A DNA stretch of 64,000 bases from Octopus vulgaris (lineage: Eukaryota). The DNA lies in NCBI GenBank assembly GCA_951406725.2, contig OX597814.1, positions 115,754,001-115,818,000 of the forward strand, given 5' to 3'. Positions 12,799-61,099 of the stretch are shown here, in pieces. The notes beneath the pieces were generated by a model. It was not told the origin of the DNA, searched no databases, and saw nothing but the letters and a program-made list of their open reading frames with translations. The position numbers were made by a program, and so were the translations under genes. Numbering within the stretch: the first letter of the stretch is position 1; every line of letters starts with the position of its first letter.

Positions 12799-12996
12799 CA
12801 TGTGTGGATGTGACTTAATTAAAGATGTGCATTATTCGTTAATATAGTACAGTACAAAAGTTGATATTGCACAAAATTTTAAAAATAATAAAAACTTACT
12901 TAATGCAAATGCATCGGTGAAACCGTTTTAAGAACTAAGTCCGTTTGTTGGATCATTGTATGCAGCAGAGAGTAATTAAATAAAATGCGTTCCCAA

Positions 12997-13187
12997 TTAA
13001 TTAAGTCCAATGGACTCCATACACCCACTGTTACCTTGTAAAGACAAGCCACCAATGATATAAAGCCGTCCGTCGTACATCGTATAAGCACACGAGCTAT
13101 GTGAGCTTGGAATATCTGAGAGAGTCGACCAGGTGCCGCTTGTAGGGTCATAACATTCCACAACACTCAAAGGTCGACCCAAATTTC
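12997..13187 (-). CDS. KLHDC8: KLHDC8 coding exon 5 with stop (191 nt); total CDS 1026 nt, 341 aa
   Basis: Acceptor AG 13189-13188. Reads GNLGRPLSVVECYDP...LYIIGGLS...IGLN*. The five exon lengths sum to an intact reading frame. Confidence 0.92.
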
Positions 13188-15661
13188 CTGAGAAAAGACA
13201 GAAGGAAATAACAAAAAAACAATTGACAATCAGGTGAAATTCCTTATTCATTAATTTTTTTTAGTTGTGTTAGTCAGTCAGTCATTGATTTGCTGCTATG
13301 TTGGAGTAACACTACCTATTTCTTTACTACCCACAAGGGGCTACACACAGAGGGGACAAACAAGGACAGACAAACAGATTAAGTCGATTATATCGACCCC
13401 CAGTGCATAACTGGTACTTAATTTATCGAACCCGAAAGGATGAAAGGCAAAGTTGACCTCGGCGGAATTTGAACTCAGAAGGTAAAGACAGACGAAATAC
13501 CTATATCTTTACTACCCACAAGGGGCAACACACAGAGGGGACAAACAGATTAAGTCCATTATATCAACCCCAGTGCGTAGGTAAAGTTGACCTCAGCTGA
13601 ATTTGAACTCAGAACGTTAACGGCAGACGAAATACCGCTAAGCATTTCGCCCGGCGTGGTAACGTTTTTGCCAGCTCACCGCCTGGGGTAACACTACCTT
13701 GAAGGGTTAAGTTCAGTTGTGGGCAAACTGTGACTTGTGGGACTTTCTAAAGGGTATGTCTAACAAAAAAATTTACTGAGAATTTTTTTTAGTAGTGAGG
13801 TCCACCTGTTAACGAGCCAGGTCTCATGTGGCCAGCTTTCAATAAAGGTTGCTCGTACCTGGTTTAGCCAATCAAATAAAACTCAGCATTTATTTTATTA
13901 GTCACTTTTAGTTGAACTGCTATGTTATGGGTGACATAAACAAACACCTGTTGGCAAGCAGTTACAGACAATTACAACACACACACACACGCACGCACAC
14001 AGAGGCTCTCACACAATTTTCAACCAAATTCGACTCACAAGGCATTCATTGATCTGGGCCTATAGGATACTTGGCCAAGGTGCTGTTCAGGGGGACTGAA
14101 CCTAAAATCATGTGGTTGCAAAGTGTACTTCACCACACAGCTACAGCTATGTGATAAAAAACAAAAAAAATGTAAATGACATTAAATGTAAAAAGCACAC
14201 TTGTGTTATGAAACAAATATTTAAAAATATCTATGTATCATGCTTAATGTGAATACACAGTTGAAGGGCAAATTTACTATTGTTTTTGTCCAGAGATAAC
14301 ATCTCTTACAGATGTGCTGTGTTTAAAATCACAATATATAACACACTGGCAAGTGGAGGCCCAATGGTTAGGGCAGTGGACTCGCGGTTTCGATTCCCAG
14401 ACTGGGCGTTGTGTGTGTTTATTGAATGAAAACACCTGAAGCTCCACGAGGCTCCGGCAGGGGCTGGTGGCAACCCCTGTTGTACTCTTTCGCTCCAACT
14501 TCCTCTCACTCTTTCTTCCTGTTTCATGTCCCCGACTTCCTATGCAACCACTGAGCCTGGATGCGCATTCATCCATCTGTCGATGCGCTCGGTGTCGGGG
14601 GTTGACCTGCTTTCTCTTTTGCGGGTCTTACGAATAGCAAAGGACCACGTTTCGGACTTCTCCCACTACAGAGGCGTGATCCTGCGAGCTCTGGGACGAA
14701 GACCGCTTCGCTCAACAAACAAACAAACTAACACTGGCAAGCTGGAGGACTGCACCAGCTCCAGTCTGATTTGGCATGGTTTCTACAGCTGGATGCCATT
14801 CCTCATGCTAACCACTTTACAGAGTGGTGCAGGATGCTTTTACATGGCAACAGCACGAATACTTTTTATATGGCACTGGCATAAGACTCTAGCAGGCTAA
14901 TCCTCTTTGCCAGGGGGAGCGGCCTTAACACTTCAGCTGTGGAGTATAGGGGTCTTCTTTAGTAACAATATGGGCAGCTGTTTGCAATCCCAATACATGT
15001 TTTTTACTGTTTTCCTATACATAAGAGGTAACAAACCTCAATTAACCATGTGGATGGATGTGAGTACATGCCATTGTTGGAGCCCAAAGAGGCTGAAATT
15101 CATCTAGCATTCTCGATAGCAACGGCCGGGACAATTTTCTTCTTTCATGCCGGGCGAAATGCTTAGCGGTATTTTGTCTGTCTTTATGTTCTGAGTTCAA
15201 ATTCTGCTGAGGGTTGACTTTGCCTTTCATCCTTTTGGGGTCGATAAATTAAGTATCAGTTGCATACTGGGGTCAATCTAGTCGACTGGCCCTGTCCCCA
15301 AAAATTTTGGGGCTTGTACCAAGAGTAGAAAAGAATTTTTTTCTTTCTCTGATATATATTGTTTTGAAACAGCACATCCATAACAGATGTTATCTCTCGA
15401 TGATTACAGCAGTAAATTTGCCTTTCAACCATGTATTTACATTAAGTATGATACACAGAAAGCTATTTTAATCAAATACTAATTCTATTGCATATAACTT
15501 AGCAACTCAGTAAAAGAGATCAACAGAATAAGTACCAGACTTAAAAAGTAAGTACTGGGGTTGATTTGTTTGATTAAACCCTTCAAGATGCTGCCCCAGT
15601 TTGAACATAACCACAGTCCAATGACAGAAACAAGTAAAAAACAATCCATTCCGGTACTTAC

Positions 15662-15754
15662 CAAATCCTCCAGCACATACAATTTTTCCAGCAATCATAC
15701 CAATTGCAAAATCCCCTCGTTTAGTAGGCATTGGCGGACAGGTCACCCAACTAT
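15662..15754 (-). CDS. KLHDC8: KLHDC8 coding exon 4 (93 nt)
   Basis: Acceptor AG 15756-15755, donor GTAAGT at 15661. Reads (N)SWVTCPPMPTKRGDFAIGMIAGKIVCAGGF(G). Confidence 0.92.
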
Positions 15755-16780
15755 CTGTGAAGAATTACATAAGAACATAAATCAGTGGAAGATCATTTAT
15801 TCTGCAAACCAAGACACCCATATATGTCCCTACTATACTTTAAATCTCTCAACTGGCACAAAGTCACACCCTCTCAATACTACCCCATCTCCAAGTTGAG
15901 TGGTTTTCTATTCTGATCTGTTAGTAACTACTACAATACACAATGAGGCCTGCCAAAACAGTAACATCAACCCTGACCTAGTTAAATGGAACCCTGATTT
16001 CGGACAGCAATCAGTGTAAAGCCGAGGACAACCGCTCAAGCTTACAAACAGATCAGATTTTAGTTTCTAAACAAGCTCTCCCTACCACCCACAGGACCCT
16101 AACTAACAAACAACTGACTGCATTCAGTTTGTTTTGAAACTAGCCAAATGGACAGACCCTGAAGATGCTGCACAGAAAATCATGCCCAGCTGCATGTTTA
16201 ACTGCCCATACTTCATGTGGAAACATGTGTAGGTCACAACCACCATAAAAATATGCTGTATGAAATTATAAAATAAGAGGAAATAAATCTTGAGGATGAA
16301 CAGGAGCCCATATTCATCATCATCATTTAACGTCCGTTTTCCATGCTAGCAAGGGTTGGACATTTCGAACGGGGTCTGGGAAGTCAGGAGGCTGCACCAG
16401 GCTCCAGTCTGATCTGGCAGTGTTTCTACAGCTGGATGCCCTTCCTAACGCCAACCACTCCGAGAGTGTAGTAGTGGGTGCTTTTTACTTGCCACCGGCA
16501 CAGGTGCCAGAGGAGGCTGGCAACGGCCATGATTGGTTGGTGCTTTTTATGTGCCACCGGCACGGAAGCCAGTCAAGGTGATATTATTATAATTATTGCT
16601 AATATATATATATATATATTTCAAAAGTTAGACAGCGAAGGGAAAATAGATGAAAACTGGGTGAGAACATAACAGACAGAAAAGGGAGACAAAAACACCA
16701 ATACAAGGAACATTAACAGCTGATTTTTTCATCAGTTGGTTTCCAAGATGTCTTTGTGGTTTCATGCTATTCAAATATCT

Positions 16781-17098
16781 ATATAGTAATGACTTTTTGC
16801 CAACATAATGTGGTAGTCCCAGGATGGGACAAATATTACTGTTATTTAGAGCCAGGAAACATTGTTTCCAGCTGGCTACACGACACAAAAAATTCCGTGT
16901 CCTTATGTTTCCGAACAGGGAAGATCAGCACCTCCACCCAGCACAACCTTGCATCCATATACCGGTTTCTGGGTTATTGCCCTTTATGCTTTGTGTTGTA
17001 TAGCCAGCTGGTAATGCTGTTTCCTGGGGCTAAATAACAGTAACATTCGTCCTGTCCTAGTACTGCATCATTATGTTGGCAAAATATCATTACTTTAT
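16781..17098. repeat. Hairpin element with ~110-bp inverted arms
   Basis: 16781-16890 is the degenerate reverse complement of 16989-17098. Confidence 0.75.
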
Positions 17099-17138
17099 GG
17101 TGCTGCTACTGTATATCTTTCTGAGAGATTTAGAAATA

Positions 17139-17169
<31 letters not shown>

Positions 17170-17350
17170 TACACACATATATATATATATATCGTGACAC
17201 ATATTTGCCATTTGAATATGGCTAACCCCTAAGGGTGGATGCTACTGTAGTTTGTAGCCCCAGGAAGATATCTCCTCCAGCTGGCTATAGACACACTATC
17301 TGTGTCCTCTCAGTATTTGTGAAGGGAAGTCATCCTCCCCGTCTTCAACT

Positions 17351-17411
17351 CATGATACACACGGACTCGAGTTTCAAGGTGTTTACCTATCATCAGCGTG
17401 TGACAATCATG
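17351..17411 (-). ncRNA. Type I hammerhead ribozyme motif (identical copy, sense to the KLHDC8 pre-mRNA)
   Basis: Exact reverse complement of 17897-17957. Predicted cleavage between 17364 and 17363. Confidence 0.8.
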
Positions 17412-17896
17412 GTTGTCGATGAGAAGTCAGCTCCCTTCACAAATACATATACTTTTTCCAGTGTCGATTGACACTGATATTGAAAAAGTGAAATCAAACA
17501 ATGATAAATCTCAGAGCGAGTTATAAACAGTAGCGGTAACACATCGTGACGCATATTTGCCATTTGAATATGGCTAACCCCTAAGGGTGGATGCTACTGT
17601 AGTTTGTAGCCCCAGGAAGATATCTCCTCCAGCTGGCTATAGACACACTATCTGTGTCCTCTCAGTATTTGTGAAGGGAAGTCATCCTCCCCGTCTTCAA
17701 CTCATGATACACACGGACTCGAGTTAGGGGTTAGCCATATTCAAATGGCAAATATGCGTCACAATGTGTTATCGCTACTGTTTATAACTCGCTCTGAGAT
17801 TTATCATTGTTTGATTTCACTTTTTCAATATCAGTGTCAATCGACACTGGAAAAAGTATATGTATTTGTGAAGGGAGCTGACTTCTCATCGACAAC

Positions 17897-17957
17897 CATG
17901 ATTGTCACACGCTGATGATAGGTAAACACCTTGAAACTCGAGTCCGTGTGTATCATG
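17897..17957 (+). ncRNA. Type I hammerhead ribozyme motif
   Basis: Stem I CACACG/CGTGTG, extended by CATGAT/ATCATG. CTGATGA at 17912-17918. Stem II AGGT-AAAC-ACCT. GAAA at 17933-17936. Palindromic stem III ACTCGAGT. GTC cleavage triplet ending at 17944. Confidence 0.8.
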
Positions 17958-18157
17958 AGTTGAAGACGGGGAGGATGACTTCCCTTCACAAATACTGAGA
18001 GGACACAGATAGTGTGTCTATAGCCAGCTGGAGGAGATATCTTCCTGGGGCTACAAACTACAGTAGCATCCACCCTTAGGGGTTAGCCATATTCAAATGG
18101 CAAATATGCGTCACGATGTGTTACCGCTACTGTTTATAACTCACTCTGAGATTTATC

Positions 18158-18203
<46 letters not shown>

Positions 18204-18217
18204 TATATACATATATG

Positions 18218-18293
<76 letters not shown>

Positions 18294-18554
18294 TATATAT
18301 AGGTTCCCCACCTGGACAGGATGCCGGTCCGTCGCAGGTGAGCTGCAAGATGCAGGAGGAAAGAGTGAGAGAAAGTTGTGGCGAAAGAGTCAGCAGAAGT
18401 TTGCCATTACTTTCTGCTGGAGCCGTGTGGAGCTTAGGTGTTTCGCTCATAAACACACTCATCGCCCTGTCTGAGATTTGAACCCGTGATCCCTCGACCG
18501 CGAATTCACTGCTCTAACTACTAGGCCGATGATATATATATATATATATAGTAA

Positions 18555-18893
18555 AGGCACATGGCTCAGTGGTTAGAGCGTCAAGTCTACGATTGTGAGG
18601 TCAATTCCTGGACTGGGCTGTGTGTTGTGTTCTTGAGCAAGACACGTTATTTCATGTTGCTCCAGTTCACTCAGCTGTAGAAATGAGTTGTGACATCACT
18701 GATGTCAAGCTGTATCGGCCCCTTTGCCTCTCCCATGGATAACATCGGTGGCGTGGAGAGGGGAGGCTGGTATGCACGGGCAACTGCTGGTCTTCCATAA
18801 AAACCACCCTAGGCTGTACGTTCACCAGTGAGGCAACTTTCTTCCCTGACTTGTACCCCAGAAGGGAACCTCTTAGGTGCACCCATGGTCATC
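18555..18893 (+). mobile_element. tRNA-derived SINE; related pieces ~7050-7340 and ~25200-25500
   Basis: TGGCTCAGTGGTTAGAGC head and GTGTTCTTGAGCAAGACAC...CACTCAGCTGTA core. Confidence 0.7.
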
Positions 18894-19261
18894 ATATATC
18901 ATTATCATCATTTAATGTCTACTTTCCATGCTAGCATGGGTTGGACGATTTGACTGAGGTCTGGTGAACCAGACTCCAATCTGATCTGGCAGAGTTTCTA
19001 CAGCTGGATGCCCTTCCTAATGCCAACCACTCCAAGAGTGTAGTGGGTGCTTTTACGTGCCACTGGCACAAAGGCTAGTTTGGTGGTACTGGCAAAGGCC
19101 ATGCCCAAATGGTGCTTTTTACGTGCCACCTGCACGGTAGTCAGTCCAGCGGCACTGGCAACAACTTCGCTCGAATGTTTCACGTGCCACCAGCACAAGT
19201 GCTAGTAAGGCGATGCATTAGTAAAATACAGAAAAATCAGGACATGCCATAAAGGACTTAC

Positions 19262-19468
19262 TTTCTACAATGTTATAACATTCCAAGATATTTGAGAATC
19301 CGTCCTCTGCTTTTTGATTTAATCCTCCAACACTGAAAATATGCATGTCATCAGTAACATACATAGCAAAGACTCGCTTTGAGGGGATATTTGGTAAAGT
19401 TTCCCATTCATTCGAAGAGAAGTCAAACTTTTCAAAGACATCGACTGGAAGTTTACCTTGCCGTCCAC
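19262..19468 (-). CDS. KLHDC8: KLHDC8 coding exon 3 (207 nt)
   Basis: Acceptor AG 19470-19469, donor GTAAGT at 19261. Reads GGRQGKLPVDVFEKFD...PNIPSKRVF...FSVGGL. Confidence 0.93.
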
Positions 19469-19737
19469 CTGTTAAGAAAAGAAAATAAAACAACCATTTT
19501 ATTCATATTATACAAAAGATATCAAAGGCAAGGTGGGAGAATCATTAGCAAGTTGGACAAAAATGATTAGTGGAATTCTCCTGATTCATTAGATTCTGAG
19601 TTCAAATTCTGCCGAGGTCGACTTTGCCTTTCATCCTCTTGGGATTGATAAATTAAGTACCAGTTGCATACTGAGGTCGATATAATCAACAAGTCCCCAC
19701 CTCACAAATCTGAGGCCTTGTGCCTCCAGTAGAAAGG

Positions 19738-19769
<32 letters not shown>

Positions 19770-20746
19770 GGCAGCGAGCTGGCAGAAACATTAGCATGCC
19801 AAGCGAAAAGCTTAGCAGTATTTCATCTGTCTTTATGTCATGAGTTCAAATTCACCTGAGGTTGACTTTGTCTTTCATCCTTTCGGAGTCGATTAAATAA
19901 GTACCATTTGCGTACTGAGGTCGATCTAATTGACTGCCCCCACCACCACCACTTCCCCTCAAATTTCGGGCCTTGTGCCTAGAGTAGAAATGATTATTAT
20001 TATAAAGGTAGCGAGCTGGCAGAATTGTTAGGGCAATGGATGAAATGGTTAGGAGTATTTCACCTATTGCCATGTTCTGAGTTCGAATTCAACCTTTCAT
20101 CTCTATGAGGTCAATAAAATAAGTACCAGTTGAAAAAACTGGGGTTGATGTAATCGACTCATCCCCTTCCACAAAACTGCTGCTCTTGTGGCAAAATTTT
20201 AAACCATTATTATTATTATTATTATTATTATTGAGTGAGAAAGAAATGCATGTGATCAAAGTGACATTGGGGTACAAATATATGAAGCCCAATATACCCA
20301 TCATGACCACCCATCAGATAAGGGTACACCAGGCCCATTGCATCACGACCATGTGTGCTACATGGTGACCTTATATCAAGATAAACAGCACATGACCATG
20401 CAGGTGGGGGTTCAGTTAGAATTTTCTTCCGGCTGAGTAGCCCAACCTGCTCAAAAGATCCCTGAATGAGTGTTGTTTAAATAGAGCACTGGAAAAAATG
20501 CCTTGCGGTATCTGTTCCGGCATTTTCACACTCTCAGTTGAAATCTCACGGAAGTCGGCTTTGCTAGTCATCCTTTCAGGATAAATAATGTATTGGTTAA
20601 CTACAGGGGTCAATGTAATCCACTAGCCCCTCACCCAAAATTTCAGGCCTTGTGGCTATAATAGAAAGGATTATTATTATTAGTATATAGCCTACTTTAT
20701 TGCAATATGAGAGAAATATATTTTCATTATTGTTGTATTTCGGGAT

Positions 20747-21134
20747 ACTCTTGTACTTGTTTCAATCATTTGACTGCAGCCATGCTGGAGCACCGCCTTT
20801 AGTCGAAGAAATTGACCCCAGGACTTATTCTTTGTAAGCCTAGTACTTATTCTATTGATCTCTTTTGACGAACTGCTAAGTTACGGGGACATAAACACAC
20901 CAGCATCGGTTGTCAAGCGATGTTGGGGGGACAAACACAGACACACAAATATATATATATACATATACAAATATACGACGGGCTTCTTTCAGTTTCTGTC
21001 CACCAAATCCACTCACAAGGTTTTGGTCGGCCTGAGGTTATAATAGAAGACACTTGACCAAGGTGCCATGCAGTGGGACTGACCCGGAACCATGTGGTTG
21101 GTAAGCAAGCTACTTACCACACAGCCACTCCTGC
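20747..21134 (-). mobile_element. tRNA-derived CORE-like SINE; also 22109-22517, 34229-34620, 32740-32934, 39640-39984
   Basis: tRNA-like head, a CCTTGG(G/T)CAAGTGTCTT block, an internal (TG/TA)n tract and a GGCGGTGCTCCAGCATGGC.GCAG tail. Confidence 0.85.
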
Positions 21135-22601
21135 AGGATGGTCATTTTTTGTATTTTTTTTGACCGAATAAACACATGCACTAAATATCCATTCTTCACT
21201 GGTTTATTACAGTTCTTATTTTAACTTGTGTCCGTTGTCTGGAAGTCTTTCGGTCACACATCTGTGACCTCTTCAGTGATATTTTCTGTCATGGCGTGTG
21301 CTCCTGCTCTGCTTAGTCCATTCCGAAAAATTTCCAGACAACAGATATGAGTGAGAATAAGAACAGTAATATAAAAAAAAAAAAGACCATCCCGAAATAC
21401 AATATCTGTTTCAACACATGGTTTCACATCAGGAATCTTGCAACACAAATCCATAAACGTATATTTTATCTTTAATTATTAGGAAAGGACCCAGGAACAT
21501 TGAAATTTTAGATTTGTATCTTCGAAGTGTAATGGATTAATGTTATAAAGAAGTTAAAGATGGCTGAGACAGAAAATTAGTCTAATTACTTTATTTAATA
21601 TAGTTTAGCACTACAATACTTTGAGTTCAACTTTCAGAGGGATTAATTCTGTCTGTACTCCCTCTGCAATCTACAAAAAAAAAATACATGTAATACACAT
21701 CTGTTATTCCAATCAACTACATCTAAAACTTGTAAATGTTGGAAGCATGTCTAGTCCAAAAAACAAAAATAAATAAAAGACCTGTCTGTTGAAATAAACC
21801 AACTATTGTTTTAAGACTAGTCTTTTATCACTGGTTTATATACAACTAAGATGCTGTAATTGTTTAAGCCTTTCGTTGCTGTATTTATTTTAAGATGCTC
21901 TGTGTTTCTTTCAATTAATTTTAAGTATAACAAAGAATTTAGTAAAATAAATTAGTTATCATTCAGCTAGTGTTAGGAACATAAATTGTGACTAAGGTTT
22001 GGAGGAATATATTAATACAAAACTTATGTAAAGAAGACATTTGTACTGAGAGCCAGAGCTGCTTTCAGCCGGGTTGGTATCAAAAGAGTTGAGAATTGTT
22101 TCTCTATTACTCTTTTTACTCTTTTACTTGTTTCAGTCATCTGACTGCGGCCATGCTGGAGCACCACCTTTAGTCGAGAAAATTGACCCCAGGACTTATT
22201 CTTTGCAAGCCTTGTACTTATTCAATTGGTCTTTTTTGCCGAACCGCTAAGTTACGGGGACGCAAACACACCAGCATCGGTTGTCAAGCAATGTTGGGGG
22301 GACAAACACAGACACACAAACATATATATAAATATATATATATATACACATATATACAATGGGCTTCTTTCAGTTTCCATCTACCAAATCCACTTAGAAG
22401 GCTTTGGTCGGCCTGAGTATAGTAGAAGACACTTGCTCAAGGTGCCACATAGTGGGACTGAACCCGGAACCATGTGGTTGGTAAGCAAGCTACTTACCAT
22501 ACAGTCACTCCTGCGCCTATTTTAAATAAATATTATTGAAGTTTTTTTAAAAAATTTACGCATTTTGTTTGAATATTTAAATCACTTTCATTGGACTTTA
22601 A

Positions 22602-22815
22602 CTCTTTAGCATTCAGGTTACTTTGTGAAATACAATGTTAAGTTATCCACATTGTTTTGAATTAATCCTGCATTATCTTGTAACTTTGAGAATTCAGTGA
22701 TGTGATTATACATATATATTTTTGGATTAACATTGTAGGGTAGGTGTGAGAGGCCAGTTCTAGCCAGATTGAATATAAAACAGGGCTGGATATGGTCGGT
22801 TTAAATGCTAAAGGG
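22602..22815 (+). mobile_element. Second TTAA/piggyBac-type MITE family; also ~1569-1778, ~11666-11891, and interrupted at ~27040-27760
   Basis: TTAA-C(C/T)CTTTAGCATT...AATGCTAAAGGG-TTAA. Confidence 0.7.
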
Positions 22816-23281
22816 TTAAAATATATTTATTGTTATCTCAGACTTAAAGGCAGCGAGCTGGCAGAATCGTTAGCACACCAGGTGAAATGCGTAGCCGTAT
22901 TTCGTCTGTTGCTACGTTCTGAGTTCAAATTCTGCCGAGGTCAACTTTGCCTTTCATCGTTTTGGGGTCAATAAATTAAGTACCAGTTACACACTGGGGT
23001 CGATCTAATCGACTTAATACCTATGTCTGTCCTTGTTTGTCCCCTCTATGTTTATCCCCTTGTGGGTAATAAAGAAATAGGTATTTCGTTTGACACTACA
23101 TTCTGAGTTCAAAATCTGCCAAGTTCAACTTTGCCTTTCATCCTTTTGGGGTCAATAAATTAAGTATCAGTCAAGTACTGAGGTCGATGTGATTGACTTA
23201 CCCCAACCACCAAAATTTCGGGCCTTATACTTACAGTAGAAAGAATTATTATCCCTGACCCCATTCTTTTTTTTTTTTAAT

Positions 23282-23662
23282 TCATCATCATCATCCTCAT
23301 TTAATGTCCACTTTCCATGCTAGCATGGGTTGGACGATTTGACTGAGGTCTGGCAAACCAGATGGCTGCACCAGGCTCCAATCTGATCTGGCAGAGTTTC
23401 TACAGCTGGATGCCCTCCCTAATGAGTCCGAGAGTGTAGTGGGTGCTTTTATGTGCCACCAGCACGAGAGCCAGTCAGGCGGTACTGGCAACAGCCACGC
23501 TGAAATGGTGCTTTTTATGTGCCACCTGCACAGGGGCCAGCCCAGCGGCACTGGCAATGACCTTGCTTGAATGTTTTTTTTACGTGCCACCAGCACAGGT
23601 GCCAGTAAGGCAACGCAGGTAACGATCACGCTTGAATGGTGCTTTTTACATGCCACCTGCAT
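23282..23662 (-). mobile_element. Interspersed retroposon family with internal subrepeats and GGAC(G/A)TTAAA-(GAT)n tail; also 66-213, 282-433, 16312-16582, 18902-19213, 27774-28180, 30452-30825, 34830-35286
   Basis: Shared TTAGGAAGGGCATCCAGCTGTAGAAAC block, variable 5' truncation and a microsatellite tail. Confidence 0.8.
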
Positions 23663-23962
23663 ATACTACAGAATCTAGGAGACCATCCTAACAAGCCTTT
23701 GGCATGGGAAGGACCTTTTGATTTTTTTTTTTGTTTTTTTGTTCATTAATTGTAATCATCTTTGCCTCTGGTCATTGGTCTGCTAAATGAAGACCAACCT
23801 GGGGCTAAACAAACAATAATACATACACACAAACTCTCTCACTCTCTCTCTCTCTCTCACACACACACACAAACACCACCACCACACTCTCTTAAAAGGT
23901 TTGATAAAGTAAAAACACAAATCTTATAACATGGTTGGCTGCTTACCAATTCCAAAACTTAC

Positions 23963-24127
23963 CGATTACATAGAGCTGGTTATCTATAAGAAATGAGAAA
24001 GTTGCATAGCGTTCGGTGGGCATCGGTGGTAAGCTTTTCCAGACATTTTTCTCCACATCGTAAGACATGAAATAGTTACGAGGGTTCCCATCTGCTGCCA
24101 TACCGCCAACGACAATTACATTACCAT
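23963..24127 (-). CDS. KLHDC8: KLHDC8 coding exon 2 (165 nt)
   Basis: Acceptor AG 24129-24128, donor GTAAGT at 23962. Reads (D)GNVIVVGGMAADGNP...MPTERYATFSFLIDNQLYVI(G). Phase 1/1 joins in frame with the neighbouring exons. Confidence 0.93.
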
Positions 24128-25676
24128 CTGTATGTAGAAAAACAAAAATGAACAGTGCCAGTTTCATAACATCAATCTTTAAGATTTGGTTTCCATGGAA
24201 ACATAGTATTCTACACATACACACACACGCACAGATATAATAGCTAAATTATTTTTTCTAAACGTATTTAAAATTTGTCATCATCATCATTTAATGTCTG
24301 CCTTCCATGCTGGCATGGGTTGGTCTGTCAATGCTTATCAAATCCTCATCACTATGTAAATTACAAAACATTTACAAAATGGTAAACTTAATTCAGTGGA
24401 CATATAAGTATAACAGGTTTTATGAGAATTTAAAAAAAAATTGGAATTGTAATAGTTTACTGCCTGATCATATTCTCTCCTTAATTTTTATTTTAATGCT
24501 TATCAATTATTTCCATGGTGAGCTAGAAGAATTGTTGACATCGAGCAAAATGCTTAGTGGCATTTCATTCTTTTTTACGTTCTGAGTTGAAACTCCAAGT
24601 TTGACTCGACCTTTCAACCTTTCAAGGTTAATAAATTAAATACCTATTTCTTTACTACCCAAAAGGGGCTAAACACAGAGGGGACAAACAAGGACAGACA
24701 TAGGTATTAAGTCGATTAGATCAACCCCAGTGCGTAACTGGTACCGAAACAATGAAAGGCAAAGTCGACCTTGGCGGAATTTGAACTCAGAACGTAGCGG
24801 CAGACAAAATACGGCTACACATTTCGCCCGGTGTGCTAACGTTTCTGCCAGCTCGCCGCCTTTACAATAAATTAAATACCAGTTGAGCACTGGGGTTGAC
24901 ATAATTGACTAGATCCCCCCCCCCGAAATTGCAGGCCTTGTACCAAAATTTGAAACCAGTTATTTCCATGAAACAAAGTACCATATTTAATAGCATATTA
25001 GATGCGTTTTTTCTCCAAATACATATTTCAAAAACTCACCCTGGGTCCTGTGGAGGACTCACAGTTGTAGGATTGCGGTTTCGATTCCCAGACCGGGCAT
25101 CGAAAATGTTTATTGAGCAAAAACACCTAAAGCTCCACGAGGCTCTGGCAGGGTGAACCCTACTGTACTCTTTCACCACAATTTTCTTCCTCTTTCTGTT
25201 GTACCTGTATTTCAAAGGGCCAGCTCTGTGACACTCTGTGTCACGCTGAATCTCCCCGAGGGTACATGTGTCTGTGGAGTGCTCAGCCACTTGCACATTA
25301 ATAAATGAGCTGCGACCTCACTGGTGCCAAGCTGTATCGGCCTTTGCCTTTCCCTTGGATAACATTGGTGGCGTGGAGAGGGGAGGCTGGTATGCGTGGG
25401 CAACTGCCGGTCTTCCATAAACAACCTTGCCCAGACTTGTACCTTGGAGGGTAACTTTCTAGGTGCAATCCCATAGTCATTCATGACCGAAGGGGGTCTC
25501 TACCCTGGGTCCTATATGCTAATTTTGTCCCTCACTCTTTTTTCCTGAATATATGCAGTTGAAATTGGGATGAGTCTAACATGTTTATACATTTTTTAAA
25601 AATAAAAATAAATTATGGTATATTTACACGCACGTAATAATTTTAGCGAAAGGTTAGAGAGAAACAAAAATCTTAC

Positions 25677-26046
25677 CGTGAACAGTTGCTGGAACTCCAA
25701 GCAAGCTTTCCCTCATGCTCTCTCCAACTGTCCATTCATTTGTATCAGTATCAAAGATCTCAACTGAATCAAGAGGCTTTTGAGTTTCAGAAACACCACC
25801 AAGCACAATGATTTTCTTTCCAACAGCGACCGCGGCAGCACCTGCTCTTTTAGTTGGAATGCCAGGGAGGGCTGTCCATGTATTGGCTTTCAAATCATAC
25901 ATCTCAAAGTTAGCTAGTGGCTTGCCACGCATATCACAACCTCCAATGACGTATAACTTGTCATTAAGAATAACAGGAGTTGCAAATACACGTTTTGATG
26001 GCATCGGGAGATGGATTTCCCATTGTCTTGGTTCTGTAGCTGCCAT
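25677..26046 (-). CDS. KLHDC8: Kelch domain-containing protein 8 homolog, coding exon 1 (370 nt)
   Basis: ATG at 26046. Kelch repeats (LYVIGGCD..., IIVLGG...W) closely resemble the vertebrate KLHDC8A/B N-terminus as I recall it. GTAAGA donor at 25676 (phase 1). A ttgcag acceptor at 26072-26073 implies an upstream non-coding exon. Confidence 0.93.
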
Positions 26047-27241
26047 GATTTATAAACAACAAACTAAATACCTGCAAGCAACAACAAGAAATATAACAGA
26101 ACTCATATAAAAATAGTCACCACAGGAGTTACACAACAGCCACCATTCATTATGATTTAAATTGCTAAACCCTTTCGTGACCAACCTGGCTGAAACCGGC
26201 TCTGGCTCTTTAGTATAAATGTCTTGTTTTCATAAGTTTTGAATTCAAATCTTCCACCAAATCTTAGTCACAATTTATGTTCTTAACATTAGGTCAATGA
26301 TAACAATGTTATTTTACTAAATTCTTTGTTATATTTAAATTGGAAGAAATATAGAGCATCTCAAAATAAACACAGTAATGAAAGGGTTAAAGACATTTTA
26401 AAAATCCACATAAATCTTTAAGTACATAAACACAAACATCAAGTCATTAAAAATGTCTGGCCTATTCATGGGATATTTGTGTGTTGTTGTTGTTAAGCAA
26501 CAAGACGGGTAAGGGTGATGGTCTAGGGCTTAGGGGCGGGAGACCCCAGATATTGGAAAAAAAAACAAAAACACTTTGGTTGTCTTGTTGTAGTCGAGGG
26601 CTCTTTGTTGACGTCCGACACCACTGGGAGGTGGCCCTCGAAGTCGCTGGAAATGGTGATCCCTAGGTCCAAATTCTTGGACAGCAGGATATTTGTGTGT
26701 GCATGTTCATTCCTTGAATGCAATGCTGAAGCCATGACTAAGCTAGCATGGGACTCACCTTTTGATTGCTAGATGTTGCAACTGAAATCTATTTTGCTTC
26801 TTTAACCCTTTGATTTGTAACCTGCCTGAGACCAACCCTAGTCCTATGATATAAAATACCTATTTTAAAGTGATCTAAATTAAAACCTTCCTTTAAAACT
26901 TCAAACCAATTTTAGCACACTGCACTTTCTCTAGAAATGATTTTCATACCACTGCCCTGTTACAGAGGAGATAACTCATACGGTGACATAATGCATCTAC
27001 AGGGTGCTGAAGGTTAATTTATGTTCCAAACACTAGCTTAACATTTCAGCATTTAATATTCTACCTGTTTTATGTTCAAACTGGCCAGACATGGCCTCTC
27101 ACACCCATCCTACAATGTAATTCTCAAAAGAAACAATCACATCATTGAAATCCCCAAACTATGAGATAATGCATGATTAATTCAAAACAATGTGAATACA
27201 TAAGGATTACAAGTTAAGATCACTGCCATGAATTCATTGAT

Positions 27242-43493: not shown

Positions 43494-44701
43494 ATCTTTT
43501 CGGTTTGAACGGCAGTTTTTAACATAATTTCTAGGTAACTAAAAAATTTTAAACTTCGTATACTGATAGAATGTGTCTATAAAACATCTTTTTCTCTTGG
43601 CTTTATTGAGAAAATTCTATAGTTTGTGAGATATTTGTTGTTTTTTTTCTTCAATTTCTGCAATTTCAACCAATCACTGACGTCTATTGAGGTAAAAAAA
43701 ACATTTTGTGCAGTATGAATATGTCCCCCGTTTAAGAAACAGATTGGGTTTATTTACATTTGTGAAGAAAAAAAGATACCCTTCCCCCACCCCTAACCCT
43801 CCTAACTAACCCTAACCCTAAAACAGATTGAAATGCAATAGATCGATACTAGGGTCATAATTATGGGTGACAATTTGGATCTTTTCCTTTTGAACGGCAG
43901 TTTTCAACACAATTTCTACTTAACTAAACACTTTTAAACTTCGTATACTGGTAGAATGTGTCAAAATAAAACATTTTTTTCTCTTGACTTTCTTGAGAAA
44001 ATTGTAATTTGTAAGTTTAACGTAGCTTAATTTTTCGAATTTTAACCAATCGATGGCCTATATTGATCTAAAATCATTTGCTGCGTCTAAAACTGAGACA
44101 ACATCCTGTCACTGACCCTAACCCTAACCCTAACCCCAATCCTAACACTAACCCTAACCCTAAATTTTAGCCTTTCGGTTTTTTTTTTCTTAATTGTTAA
44201 ATTAATTTAATTGTTACGCGTGTGTCTAAAATTATTCGTTTTGTTTTTGTTTTGAGATACACGTGTATTGTTTAAACTATTTTCCATTGCTTAAGAAAAA
44301 AAAAAAAAACGAAAGGCTAAAACGAAAGCAATGGAAAATAATTTAAACAATTAACAAACAAAATAATTCTATAATTTTATACACACGCTTTCCGAACTTA
44401 AACATAACAGTGACAGGATGTTGTCTCAGTTTTAGACGCAGCAAATGATTTTAGCTAAATAGAGGCCATCGATTGGTTAAAATTCGAAAAATTAAACTAC
44501 GTTAAACTTACAAATTACAATTTTCTCAAGAAAGCCAAGAGAAAAAAAAATGTTTCATGTTGACACATTCTACCAGTATACGAAGTTTAAAAGTGTTTAG
44601 TTAATTAGAAATTGTGTTGAAAACTGCCGTTCAAAAGGAAAAGATCCGACAATTTCAAATGACACCGCTAGAAAAAACTGCCGTTCAAACCGAAAAGATC
44701 C
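43494..44701. mobile_element. Nested Merlin-like MITEs; inner element 43877-44647
   Basis: GGATCTTTTC...GAAAAGATCC TIRs. The inner copy is flanked by the 8-bp TSD GACAATTT (43869-43876, 44648-44655). (CCCTAA)n tracts inside. Confidence 0.8.
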
Positions 44702-58337: not shown

Positions 58338-61099
58338 ATATATATAATAACTTTGATACGTTTCGGCCAGTACGGGCCCAGGCCATGTCTATATATATAC
58401 ATGTATGTATATGTACTCGTACAAAATGGATCCTCCGCCGTTTTCGTCGATGAGCATTCAACTGTTTGAGGCAGTCATAGAGAGACAGACAAATTGTTTT
58501 TCGCTGGGAACGGCCGAAAAAGTGTTTGGTGTCAGCTCACGACTACAGCAACACCTAAAACAATAATCGGTAGTATGGTGTATGTTACTAGCGAAACATT
58601 GAGCATGTAACCACTGAAGAAAGAGAGGAAGGACTACACCAGCACTTGGCTAGTACCAATCTTCATTTTACCACGTAAAATGGGGATGCCTTGCTGAAAT
58701 ACACAACACACCGGGATCTTTTCGGTTTGAACGGCAGTTTTTTCTAGCGATGTCATATGAAATTGTCACCCATAATTATGACCCTAGTATCGATCTATTA
58801 CATTTCAATCTGTTTTTGGTTTAGGGTTAGAGTTAGGGTTAGGGGGTATCATTTTTTCTTCAGAAATGTAAATAAACCCAATCTGTTTCTTAAACGCGGC
58901 ACATATTCATACGGCGCAGAATGTTTTTGCCTCAATAGACGTCATTGATTGGTTGAAATTGCAGAAATTGAAGAAAAAAACAACAAATATCTTACAAACC
59001 ATAGAATTTTCTCAATAAAGCCAAGAGAAAAAGATGTTTTATAAACACATTCTACCAGTATAGGAAGTTTTTTATAGTATAGGAAGTTTTTTAGTTACCT
59101 AGAAATTGTTAAAAACTGCCGTTCAAACCGAAAAGATCCCCAATCTTGGTACCAATGAAGATTGGTACTAGCCAAGTGCTGGTGTAGTCCTTCCTCTCTT
59201 TCTTCAGTGGTTACATGCTCAATGTTTCGCTAGTAACATACACCATACTACCGATTATTGTTTTAAGTGTTGCTGTAGTCGTGAGCTGACACCAAACACT
59301 TTTTCGGCCGTTCCCAGCGAAAAAATTTGTCTGTCGCTCTAATGACTGCCTCAAACAGTTGAATGCTCATCGACGAAAACGGCGGAGGATCCATTCTGTA
59401 CGAGTACATATACATACATGTATATATATAGACATGGCCTGGGCCCGTACTGGCCGAAACATATCAAAGTTATTATATATATTCTTCAATTTCAACCAAT
59501 CAATGACGTCTATTGAGGTGAAAACATTCTGTGCCGTATGAATATGTCCCTCGTTTAAGAAACAGATTGGGTTTATTTACATTTGTAGAAACAGATTGGG
59601 TTTATTTACATTTGTGAAGAAAAAAAGAAACCCTTCCCCCCACCCCTAACCCTAACCCTAACCAAGCCTAACTCTAACCCTAACCCTGAAACAGATTGAA
59701 ATGCAATAGATCGATACTAGGGTCATAATTATGGTGACAATTTCATATGACACCGCTAGAAAAAACTGCCGTTCAAACCGAAAAGATCCATTTGATGTCT
59801 AAAAAAAATCTTTTTATATTTTTATATTTTATATTTTTAGAATGAAATATATATCGTATATAATTAAAAGATACAGAAATATTTTATTCTCAAACGCATG
59901 ACAATGCCAATACAGTAGCATGAACAGGATAAACTACCCATTTATTGCAGAACAATTCGTTACTGGGCAGTTTAGCTTAAAGGTAAAGCACTAAGGCGGC
60001 GAGCTGGCAGAAACGTTAGCACGCCGGGCGTAATGCTTAGTGGTTCGTCTGCCGTTACGTTGTAGGTTCAAATTCCGCCGAGGTCGACTTTGCCTTAAAT
60101 CCTTTCGGGGTCGATAAATTAAGTACCAGTTACGCACTGGGGTCGATGTAATTGACTTTAATACCTATGTCTGTCCTTGTTTGTCCCCTCTGTGTTTAGC
60201 CCCTTGTGGGTAATAAAGAAATAGGTATTTCCTCTGCCGTTACGTTCTGAGTTCAAATTCCGCCGAAGTTGACTTTGCCTTTCATCCTTTCGGAGTCGAT
60301 TAAATAAGTACCAGTTACGCACTGGGGTCGATATAATCGACTTAATTCGTTTGTCTGTCCTTGTTTGTTCTGTCTGTGTTTAGCGCCTTGTGGGTAGTAA
60401 AGAAATAGGTAAAGCACTAACGCGTAATCACATGGATGTGAGTTCGAGTCTCATGGCTGGTCGGTAACGAATTTTTCTGCAATATATGGATAGGTTTATC
60501 CTGTTCATGCTATTGTATTAACATTATCATGCGTTTGAGAATAAATTATTTCTGAATCTTTCAATACATCTCAACGCTTCTATTTGATTACTTTCATCGT
60601 AAGTTGAATATATAATTAAATATTTTTGTAATTAATATGAATTTTATAAGAAAAATGTTAGACGTATAACCAATTTATTGCAAATAAAATTTAGAAAAAT
60701 CTAAGGTTGAGAAGGGACAGAATATGTCCATCAATACATTGAGAGTGGTGATATAGGATTTGTTAGAACTAGGATTCAGTCGATGCTCAGGAGTCTTGAA
60801 CAAGCTACAACATCTTCCGTGGGCGCTATGTGAACCCCATGAGCAATACAGACCTCGGTTGAGAACCATTTGTTGAGAGGATTATGCAAAGTGTGATAGC
60901 TGGAAGGAGTGAGGATTGTACTAGGATGGTACTCATTCTAGCAGAGCAGACTGGAATAACATGAAATGAGATGCCTCACTCAGAAACACAGCGTTTTGAC
61001 TAGCCGAGAATTGAACCCACGACCTTATGGTCGTCAGCGGAACACCCCCCAAACGGAAGCCTCGACTAAAATATTCAATTAAGCAGAAGCTAAAACAAT

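What the first reader, a model, noticed from the sequence alone, without database searches (positions are those of the whole stretch)
17191..18160. Hammerhead-ribozyme-bearing 352-bp repeat: candidate cephalopod retrozyme or Penelope pseudo-LTR
Seen: a 352-bp unit repeated ~1.5 times, then ~1.25 times in inverted, head-to-head orientation. It is nearly mutation-free and sits between (TA)n tracts. Each full unit holds a type I hammerhead: CACACG-CUGAUGA-U-AGGU(AAAC)ACCU-U-GAAA-CUCGA-GUC^CGUGUG, with a palindromic stem III (ACUCGAGU). Predicted cleavage sites at 17716/17715 (truncated copy) and 17364/17363 are exactly one unit apart. Established: minimal type I hammerheads with palindromic stem III occur in Penelope-like element pLTRs and in animal non-LTR retrozymes, which are tandem units of a few hundred bp processed into monomeric circular RNAs. 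Inference: a young, non-coding, self-cleaving retroelement family in this genome. Caveat: the base of stem II is a U-U mismatch, which could lower activity.
Basis: partly seen in the sequence, partly recalled or inferred. Interest (0 to 1): 0.88.

Follow-up and report, generated by a model that had tools for sequence, protein, structure and literature searches.

The report
Ribozyme repeat copied by Penelope elements
This is a young copy of a protein-free 352-base repeat that carries a self-cutting-type RNA motif and is scattered through this animal genome; its copies end in the way Penelope-type jumping genes do, so it likely borrows their enzymes and is likely copied onto both DNA strands from one RNA source, which would help explain how such repeats spread.

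Summary
Observation confirmed: two head-to-head arms (1.52 and 1.24 units of 352 bp, about 99% identical) between (TA)n tracts, with two complete type I hammerheads and one truncated one. It lies in an intron of a kelch-repeat gene. It is one of at least 113 young dispersed insertions of an old non-coding family with four subfamily layers. No copy was continuous with a Penelope ORF, so this is a non-LTR retrozyme (non-autonomous Penelope-like element), not a pLTR. Copies have ragged 5' ends and 3' ends at two fixed internal sites 43-46 nt apart, not at the ribozyme cut. In 42 of 43 inverted insertions with two canonical ends, one arm ends at each site. Arms within an insertion share subfamily variants (6% mismatch against 46% between loci). 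This fits the two-site, two-strand priming shown in vitro for a Poseidon element. A circular template is likely but unproven, cleavage is untested and the partner enzyme was not identified. This locus is probably a dead end. An L1/Tx1-like LINE inserts at one site in other copies. This scan noted that LINE, and the two-strand reading, before on other DNA.

The parts
17191..17725 (-). Left arm, 1.52 units in ribozyme sense; outer (3') end at unit site 173 (unit numbered from the base after the GUC cut), 5' end at 343
17724..18160 (+). Right arm, 1.24 units; 5' end at unit 132, outer (3') end at site 216
18118..18160 (+). 43-nt tail (unit 174-216) between the two inferred reverse-transcription start sites; present at this end only
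   Evidence: tail concept from PMC8557442 and PMC11167929
17906..17950 (+). Complete type I hammerhead; predicted cut 17944/17945
   Evidence: Rfam RF00163 21.9 bits, E 0.0024, below gathering score; sequence
17358..17402 (-). Complete type I hammerhead; predicted cut 17364/17363
17710..17725 (-). Truncated hammerhead (stem III palindrome, GUC, 3' strand of stem I); site 17716/17715 could only be cut in trans
   Evidence: sequence; cleavage in trans is inference
17861..17996 (+). Long rod that closes the hammerhead, with compensatory changes between subfamilies
   Evidence: MFE -55.1, z -5.83
17857..17864 (+). TATA-like box (TATATGTA here, TATATATA in older subfamilies) about 25-30 nt upstream of the LINE target site; candidate promoter, untested
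17886..17905 (+). 20-bp site (unit 294-313) that an L1/Tx1-like LINE occupies and duplicates in other copies; empty here, as is its minus-strand copy at 17403-17422
17139..17192 (.). (TA)n target tract, left
18160..18301 (.). (TA)n target tract, right
16779..17136 (.). Much older, also inverted member of the same family (arms 16779-16987 minus, 16992-17136 plus) that shares the left TA tract
   Evidence: nhmmer E 2.4e-28 and 2.5e-19
15755..19261 (-). Host intron of a kelch-repeat gene (exons 25677-26071, 23961-24127, 19262-19466, 15661-15754, 12909-13186)
   Evidence: one spliced contig of run X1 joins the five exons; Pfam Kelch_1

Best explanation
This is one insertion of a dispersed, protein-free 352-nt hammerhead repeat (a non-LTR retrozyme) whose copies have fixed 3' ends, ragged 5' ends and (TA)n flanks; it was likely made by a borrowed Penelope-type enzyme that nicked both strands of the TA tract and copied one RNA source, probably a circle, from two fixed internal start sites, one per strand. 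Steps: (1) inferred: a donor copy with two complete hammerheads is transcribed, probably from the TATA-like box, self-cleaves (likely as a dimer through the palindromic stem III) and is ligated into a 352-nt circle. (2) Inferred from a published in vitro PLE: the RT-GIY-YIG protein nicks AT-rich DNA on both strands and starts cDNA inside the RNA. (3) Shown here: cDNA ends map to unit sites 173 and 216-219, run across the ribozyme cut site for up to 2.3 units and stop at scattered positions. (4) Inferred: when both strands prime, the two cDNAs join head to head, usually with a few bases of overlap, giving the inverted structure with a tail on one side only. The window copy is probably a dead end.
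For: 3' ends: 41 of 46 single-arm young insertions end at 173 or 216-219. Of 61 simple inverted insertions, 43 have two canonical ends, and 42 of these have one of each (0 are 173/173, 1 is 216/216; binomial p 5e-12 at 0.5). The same two ends recur in older subfamilies and, with other tail lengths, in ORF-bearing PLE families of this genome, where the tail is the start of the next tandem unit. One source per insertion: diagnostic-site mismatch is 20/310 between arms and 7/188 between tandem passes, against 46% and 40% between insertions, while background divergence within insertions is 2.4-2.7%, so this is not recent conversion. Variants private to one insertion and shared by its passes: 7, including 4 doubletons against 0.43 expected. 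Fold-back copying is excluded as the general rule: in 30 of 42 insertions the 173 arm is too long to lie inside the 216 arm. Template continuous through the cut: 150 crossings against 6 5' ends within 3 nt of it; 15 segments cross two sites. RNA structure is maintained: 12 of 12 core positions are unchanged between the young unit and two older consensuses that differ at 52-59 of 352 sites, with 5 and 4 double compensatory changes. In a 35-row alignment 91.4% of cells pair and 7 pairs change on both sides; 0/500 shuffles reach the covariation score and all slid controls are lower. Circular MFE -118.6, z -6.3. No ORF (longest ATG frame 56 aa). Literature: PMC11167929 (parts 1-2 of 4 read) shows that a Poseidon PLE nicks and extends both strands at AT-rich DNA and starts at two internal sites that bound the tail. 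PMC7229834 (parts 2-4 of 6 and passages) shows circles for coral, mussel and axolotl retrozymes, including an active hammerhead with a U-U at the base of stem II, and names PLEs as candidate mobilisers.
Against: No RNA evidence for cleavage or a circle could be obtained. The partner was not found: three ORF-bearing PLE groups (781-aa and 574-aa-fragment Neptune-like, 842-aa Hydra-like) share no detectable sequence with the unit, and their tails (about 38, 32 and roughly 50-70 nt, read from a few copies) do not match 43-46. In PMC11167929 hammerhead mutants inserted normally, unprocessed RNA was the main template, and start sites did not differ between strands in bulk. The oldest subfamily sampled has CUGAUAA (C3 opposite A8) in its matching copies; from established hammerhead chemistry this should cripple cleavage, yet that layer gave 2400 first-look candidates. 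Haplotype sharing could reflect one active donor at a time rather than one molecule. The structure counted was derived from the window sequence and the rows are related, so its shuffle counts are not probabilities (32/500 shuffles reach the pair count). Among young copies the core mutates as fast as the rest (1.44% vs 1.65%). Loci were chosen by full-unit similarity or an exact hammerhead match, so short 3'-only copies are under-sampled and crossings of the cut site are inflated. 18 of 61 inverted insertions have a non-canonical outer end.
Confidence: 0.62

Rival explanations
1. Same non-autonomous Penelope-like element and same two-site priming, but the template is an uncut linear multimeric transcript of a tandem donor; the hammerhead is dispensable or only a passenger.
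For: In vitro a Poseidon PLE inserts equally well with dead hammerheads and uses unprocessed RNA. 5' ends rarely fall at the cut site (6 vs 150 crossings). The oldest layer has a C3/A8 core. 12 of 113 young insertions hold two complete hammerheads in tandem.
Against: Core and stems are kept, with compensatory changes, across subfamilies that differ by 15-17%. The longest arm seen is 823 nt, so linear copying with 5' truncation should shorten arrays each round unless a circle restores them (inference). Successive passes share insertion-private variants more often than chance, although most private variants are unshared (146 vs 5), as expected for mutations after insertion.
Confidence: 0.27
2. 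The repeats are pseudo-LTR remnants of an autonomous, ORF-bearing PLE.
For: All insertion hallmarks are PLE-type, and PLE pLTRs carry type I hammerheads (PMC4209133, parts 1-2 of 4 read). Five loci have PLE ORF fragments upstream in the same sense within 1.2 kb.
Against: The unit repeats with a 352-358-nt period and no ORF in four subfamily layers. The five upstream ORF fragments are partial or carry their own 3' UTR and TA tract, and no such junction recurs. Only about 230 insertions out of thousands of candidates were read.
Confidence: 0.05
3. A satellite that grows by local unequal crossing-over, or a DNA-level rolling-circle element.
For: The 2026 preprint proposes local tandem amplification for vertebrate retrozymes (10.64898/2026.07.22.740005, parts 1-3 of 5 read).
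Against: Copies are dispersed over at least 27 contigs, at most 2.3 units per arm, with fixed 3' and ragged 5' ends, inversions and RNA-type covariation.
Confidence: 0.03
4. A SINE-like element mobilised by a LINE, for example the L1/Tx1-like LINE found inside it.
For: That LINE is physically tied to the unit at 19 loci.
Against: The LINE sits inside already integrated copies with its own 20-bp duplication, and other passes through the same site at the same loci are empty (L201, L353, L354, L355). The unit has no poly(A) end and uses two internal start sites.
Confidence: 0.03

Closest known systems
Metazoan non-LTR retrozymes (Cervera and de la Pena 2020, PMC7229834), e.g. mussel 350-390-bp repeats and axolotl Rtz_353 with HHR_Amex2
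   Same: Tandem unit of about 350 bp, GC under 50% (42.6%), one type I hammerhead per unit, short palindromic stem III, U-U at the base of stem II, no ORF, strongly self-paired circle predicted.
   Different: Dispersed short insertions with a documented Penelope-type end structure rather than long arrays; cleavage and circles not shown here; octopus and cephalopod do not occur in that paper's main text.
Animal retrozymes as non-autonomous PLE derivatives (Li, Clavereau, Pollet, bioRxiv 10.64898/2026.07.22.740005)
   Same: Same conclusion on dependence on PLEs.
   Different: Their evidence is co-occurrence and pLTR similarity in 35 genomes with no mollusc, and they favour local tandem growth. 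Here there is no similarity to a pLTR of the three PLE groups tested, and the evidence comes from insertion junctions.
EN+ Penelope-like elements (Neptune, Naiad, Hydra, Poseidon; PMC8557442; PAc in PMC11167929)
   Same: 5' truncation, partial tandems, inverted 5'-truncated arm, tail on one end only, (TA)n target, two internal start sites.
   Different: No RT or GIY-YIG ORF; tail of 43-46 nt against the 30-40 quoted; the strict one-site-per-arm count was not in the passages I read.
Non-autonomous Chlamys elements such as MRC1 (PMC8557442 passage)
   Same: Non-coding, head-to-tail multicopy insertions moved by a PLE.
   Different: Those share 3' sequence with an autonomous family; most Chlamys lack hammerheads.
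Target-specific Tx1-clade LINEs: Tx1L in Tx1D, Tx1-Mar in Mariner-N4_AMi, Keno (PMC4494074, introduction and passages)
   Same: For the LINE found inside other copies: a fixed site in another mobile element, with a target duplication.
   Different: The target is a ribozyme repeat; clade placement was not tested by a tree.

Membership tests
Metazoan non-LTR retrozyme | Type I hammerhead in each unit | tested here: met
Metazoan non-LTR retrozyme | Tandem unit of 150-450 bp, GC under 50% | tested here: met
   352 bp, 42.6% GC
Metazoan non-LTR retrozyme | No protein-coding capacity | tested here: met
   longest ATG frame 56 aa on the circular unit
Metazoan non-LTR retrozyme | Stable, highly self-paired monomer fold | tested here: met
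   z -6.3; covariation
Metazoan non-LTR retrozyme | Two consecutive complete hammerheads (the 'active' criterion of the 2026 preprint) | tested here: inconclusive
   not met by the window copy; met by 12 of 113 young insertions of the family
Metazoan non-LTR retrozyme | Self-cleavage of the transcript | not testable with these tools
   bench assay needed
Metazoan non-LTR retrozyme | Accumulation as circular RNA | not testable with these tools
   only assembled contigs were offered, no raw reads
Type I hammerhead ribozyme | Core CUGAnGA, GAAA, UH with stems I-III | tested here: met
Type I hammerhead ribozyme | Rfam RF00163 gathering score 34 bits | tested here: not met
   21.9 bits
Type I hammerhead ribozyme | Loop 1-loop 2 tertiary contact | not tested
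   not examined
Autonomous EN+ Penelope-like element (pLTR) | RT plus GIY-YIG ORF between the repeats | tested here: not met
   none in the window; no continuous link in about 230 insertions from 275 loci
Penelope-type insertion | Tail of a few tens of bases at one end only | tested here: met
   43-46 nt; 42 of 43
Penelope-type insertion | 5' truncation, partial tandems, inverted 5'-truncated arm | tested here: met
Penelope-type insertion | (TA)n target preference | tested here: met
   strict regex: 30 of 46 single 3' ends; at least one TA flank in 51 of 61 inverted insertions
Non-autonomous derivative of a named PLE family | Shared terminal sequence with an autonomous partner | tested here: inconclusive
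   none with three PLE groups; only the best 150 of 6136 and 150 of 19396 candidates were scored
Tx1-clade target-specific LINE (element inside other copies) | AP endonuclease, RT and zinc-finger ORF2; CCHC ORF1 | tested here: met
   (best solved relative: LINE-1 ORF2, E 2.5e-39)
Tx1-clade target-specific LINE (element inside other copies) | Fixed target with duplication | tested here: met
   20 of the 21 closest 3' ends (query included) abut unit 294; 14 of 19 loci have the unit up to about 313 on the 5' side
Tx1-clade target-specific LINE (element inside other copies) | RT phylogeny within Tx1 | not tested
   no named Tx1 references were available

The most novel reading that the evidence does not exclude
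Each inverted insertion is the product of one Penelope enzyme dimer working on one hammerhead-made RNA circle: its two halves prime opposite strands of a TA tract, one obligatorily at site 173 and the other at 216-219, and roll round the circle. That would explain the Penelope tail, tandems and inversions in one mechanism and prove that animal retrozyme circles are PLE substrates. A LINE has in turn evolved to land at the probable start site of this repeat.
Probability: 0.35. Interest if true: 0.75.

Novelty: new member of a known kind. Interest (0 to 1): 0.5.

Why it matters
Which enzyme spreads animal retrozymes, and how Penelope elements make their tails and inversions, are open questions; the first rests so far on co-occurrence and similarity, the second on one in vitro system. 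A 352-nt template with over a hundred young, unambiguous insertions gives exact predictions: start sites 173 and 216-219, one per strand, with read-through of the ribozyme site. These can be tested with purified protein. A minimal RNA that a PLE copies into TA repeats would also define the cis-signals of that enzyme. The class itself is known and this locus looks inert, which caps the interest.

Tried and rejected
Rfam over 16000-19500 gave only AT-repeat noise. Expression: no run on record as RNA was listed. Contigs of X1, X8, X10 and X15 cover the unit, but contigs cannot show strand, ends or circles and the family is multicopy, so this is no evidence either way. X1 was useful only for the host gene's splicing. 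Partner search: GIY-YIG scan, a Hydra-like protein scan, blastn and nhmmer of their UTRs against the unit; hits were separate neighbouring insertions (L095, L107, L119, L128, L049, L370, L372, L392, L402; those I read are). The 5.3-5.7-kb spacing of unit pairs at L201 and L291 looked like pLTR-ORF-pLTR but is a LINE inside the unit. Mobilisation of a LINE-plus-unit composite circle was rejected as the general rule because other passes at the same loci lack the LINE; L341 is a complex exception. Fold-back second-strand synthesis was rejected. A linear cleaved monomer as main template was rejected. The bacterial promoter scan is irrelevant and at chance level. The target of the LINE's older relatives had no Rfam match, and a protein search returned no informative names. 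L236 and L237 duplicate L086 and were dropped (113 instead of 115). Literature searches: hammerhead+Penelope+octopus, retrozyme, Penelope+octopus+retrotransposon+cephalopod, Tx1 searches. None listed a cephalopod retrozyme or a LINE targeting one; PMC13282606 (passages only) has no occurrence of 'ribozyme'. Supplements and Repbase/Dfam libraries were not read and may already hold this family.

Full report
Numbering. Unit position 1 is the base after the predicted GUC cut (minus strand, 17715) and 352 is the C of GUC. On the right arm, position p (132-352) is window 17592+p.

1. Observation. The region holds a left arm 17191-17725 in minus sense and a right arm 17724-18160 in plus sense, 535 and 437 nt of a 352-nt unit, 99.2-99.6% identical, between (TA)n tracts. 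Two hammerheads are complete (17906-17950 plus, 17358-17402 minus) and one is cut down to its stem III palindrome and cut site. Rfam Hammerhead_1 matches weakly: 21.9 bits, gathering score 34, E 0.0024 in a 141-nt search, and was not listed in a 3.5-kb search. The rod around the ribozyme folds at z -5.83 and the circular monomer at z -6.3. A spliced contig of run X1 joins five exons of a minus-strand kelch-repeat gene, which places the element in intron 15755-19261.

2. Family. The genome (G000, 2.8 Gb, 227 contigs) gave 2642 first-look candidates for the unit; the 40 scored were near-identical, with full-length matches at 95-100%. Exact pattern counts are 54 for the window's hammerhead, 117 for the young core with two variable positions and 785 for a 3'-proximal motif, each with 0 in the reversed control. 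Older layers exist: two whose consensuses differ from the young unit at 59 and 52 of 352 sites, and one with a 357-358-nt period that aligns only loosely and has a member right beside the finding at 16779-17136. More distant relatives also turned up. Between the young unit and the two older consensuses the 12 core positions are unchanged and 5 and 4 pairs change on both sides while staying paired; 12 and 9 pairs are broken by a single change. On a 35-row alignment, 91.4% of cells pair, and the outer Watson-Crick pair of stem II switches between A-U (17 rows) and G-C (14 rows); related rows and a window-derived structure inflate such counts. The U-U at the base of stem II is A-U or G-U in many young copies and C-A in older ones. 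An axolotl retrozyme hammerhead with the same U-U is active in vitro (PMC7229834). The oldest layer reads CUGAUAA, which should be weak or dead (general hammerhead knowledge, not a test).

3. Retrozyme or pLTR. The unit has no ORF over 56 aa. The window has no PLE protein similarity. In 275 loci (about 230 distinct insertions) five have same-sense PLE ORF fragments within 1.2 kb upstream, none continuous with the unit and none with a recurring junction. The genome does hold intact or near-intact PLEs: a Neptune-like family with a 781-aa RT-GIY-YIG frame, a second Neptune-like family and a large Hydra-like family with an 842-aa frame (clade labels by motif recall, not by tree). All end in TA tracts and have tails; in the first, the tail is the start of the next tandem unit. 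None shares sequence with the unit. So it is non-autonomous and its partner is unidentified.

4. Insertion anatomy. Among 115 distinct young insertions, 46 are single arms (26 end at about 173, 15 at 216-219, 5 elsewhere) and 61 are simple head-to-head inversions. Of these 61, 43 have two canonical ends, and 42 of the 43 pair a 173 end with a 216-219 end (p 5e-12); 18 have one or two other ends. 5' ends are spread over the whole unit. At the inversion point 31 of 61 overlap by 1-6 nt and 10 are blunt. Arms and tandem passes within an insertion share subfamily variants (20/310 and 7/188 mismatches against 46% and 40% between loci) while carrying ordinary independent divergence. Segments cross the ribozyme cut site 150 times and begin within 3 nt of it 6 times; the sample favours crossings. 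Neither arm is regularly contained in the other.

5. Mechanism. PMC11167929 (parts 1-2 of 4) showed that a purified Poseidon PLE, predicted to be a dimer, nicks and extends both strands of AT-rich DNA and starts cDNA at two internal RNA sites that bound the genomic tail. The window fits this directly: one strand primed at 173 (left arm), the other at 216 (right arm), and the two cDNAs met with a 2-nt overlap. The one-of-each rule is the added constraint. Whether the RNA was a circle or an uncut multimer is not settled. For the circle: conserved ribozyme and rod, passes beyond two units, shared private variants (4 doubletons vs 0.43 expected) and circles shown for other retrozymes. For the multimer: hammerhead mutants of PAc insert normally and the oldest layer has an altered core. 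I put the PLE-mobilised, two-site reading at about 0.9 and the circle at about 0.7 given that.

6. This locus. Each arm has one complete hammerhead, and when the whole locus is folded as host pre-mRNA or as the opposite strand, stem I probability is 0 because the arms pair with each other; for the left arm alone it is about 0.68. Only 12 of 113 young insertions have two complete hammerheads, 6 of them with the TATA-like box well upstream. The window copy is therefore probably not a donor.

7. A LINE that targets the repeat. At other loci a 5.3-kb LINE (CCHC ORF1; AP endonuclease, RT, zf-RVT) sits inside the unit. Its 3' end abuts position 294 in 20 of the 21 closest copies (the query is one of them), a diverged relative of the repeat in one more, and another recurrent target in older copies. 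At 14 of 19 loci the 5' flank is the unit up to about 313, giving a 20-bp duplication, in several subfamilies. A 22-nt 3'-end pattern gave 53 matches: 19 at this site, 29 at two other recurrent sequences and 5 elsewhere. Tx1-clade LINEs that target other mobile elements are known (PMC4494074). I found this before consulting earlier notes; other agents of this scan reported the same LINE in this genome and the two-strand reading in other genomes. Those notes are unchecked and are not independent support.

8. Comparison and verdict. It works like a Penelope-type insertion and meets the testable features of a non-LTR retrozyme; cleavage and circles are untested. The class and its link to PLEs are in print (PMC7229834; bioRxiv 10.64898/2026.07.22.740005, parts 1-3 of 5; PMC8557442 passages and introduction; PMC3846280 passages). 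My searches listed no cephalopod retrozyme and no per-insertion count of the two ends; supplements and repeat libraries were not seen. New member of a known kind, with junction statistics that make the mobilisation model testable. Interest 0.5.

Noticed in passing
L201:2240-7539 (G000:C7), L291, L292, L342-L358: L1/Tx1-like LINE inserted at unit 294/313 of the retrozyme with a 20-bp duplication, 6 nt before the hammerhead core; already noted by other agents of this scan.
   Followed up: yes
L353 and L344, 5' LINE junction: The bases just before the LINE differ from the downstream duplication (L353 matches another subfamily over about 40 nt), as if the LINE transcript carried upstream repeat sequence from its donor.
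   Followed up: partly
L359, L360, L332, L335-L340; one search list: Older and sister LINE copies abut other recurrent targets, some in tandem clusters on C27 and C2 and in 5.3-kb head-to-tail stacks on C5; no Rfam match for the one tested.
   Followed up: partly
window 16779-17136; L262-L290: Oldest subfamily sampled has hammerhead core CUGAUAA (C3 opposite A8) yet is abundant.
   Followed up: partly
L094:768-2207, L096, L098: The young 781-aa Neptune-like PLE has an upstream overlapping 479-aa frame and a U3-A8-type minimal hammerhead in its 3' UTR.
   Followed up: partly
L391-L402: Hydra-like PLE with an intact 842-aa frame, no Pfam hit, a 1.7-2-kb 3' UTR and a hammerhead with a very long stem II; 19396 first-look candidates.
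   Followed up: partly
L107, L110, L034, L119: Second Neptune-like PLE family whose hammerhead also has U-U at the base of stem II; some copies have an altered core.
   Followed up: no
L293-L304, L308, L358: Further distant relatives of the repeat (about 60-73% identical) with their own hammerheads; L358's two passes are identical over 71 nt, so another layer may be young.
   Followed up: no
L086, L236, L237 (G000:C14, 73.5-74.5 Mb): The same insertion with the same flanks three times, likely a segmental duplication.
   Followed up: no
window 12909-26071 minus strand: Five-exon kelch-repeat gene, spliced in run X1.
   Followed up: partly
window 44115-44163 and 59644-59687: Short degenerate (ACCCTA)n / (CCCTAA)n telomere-like arrays.
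   Followed up: no
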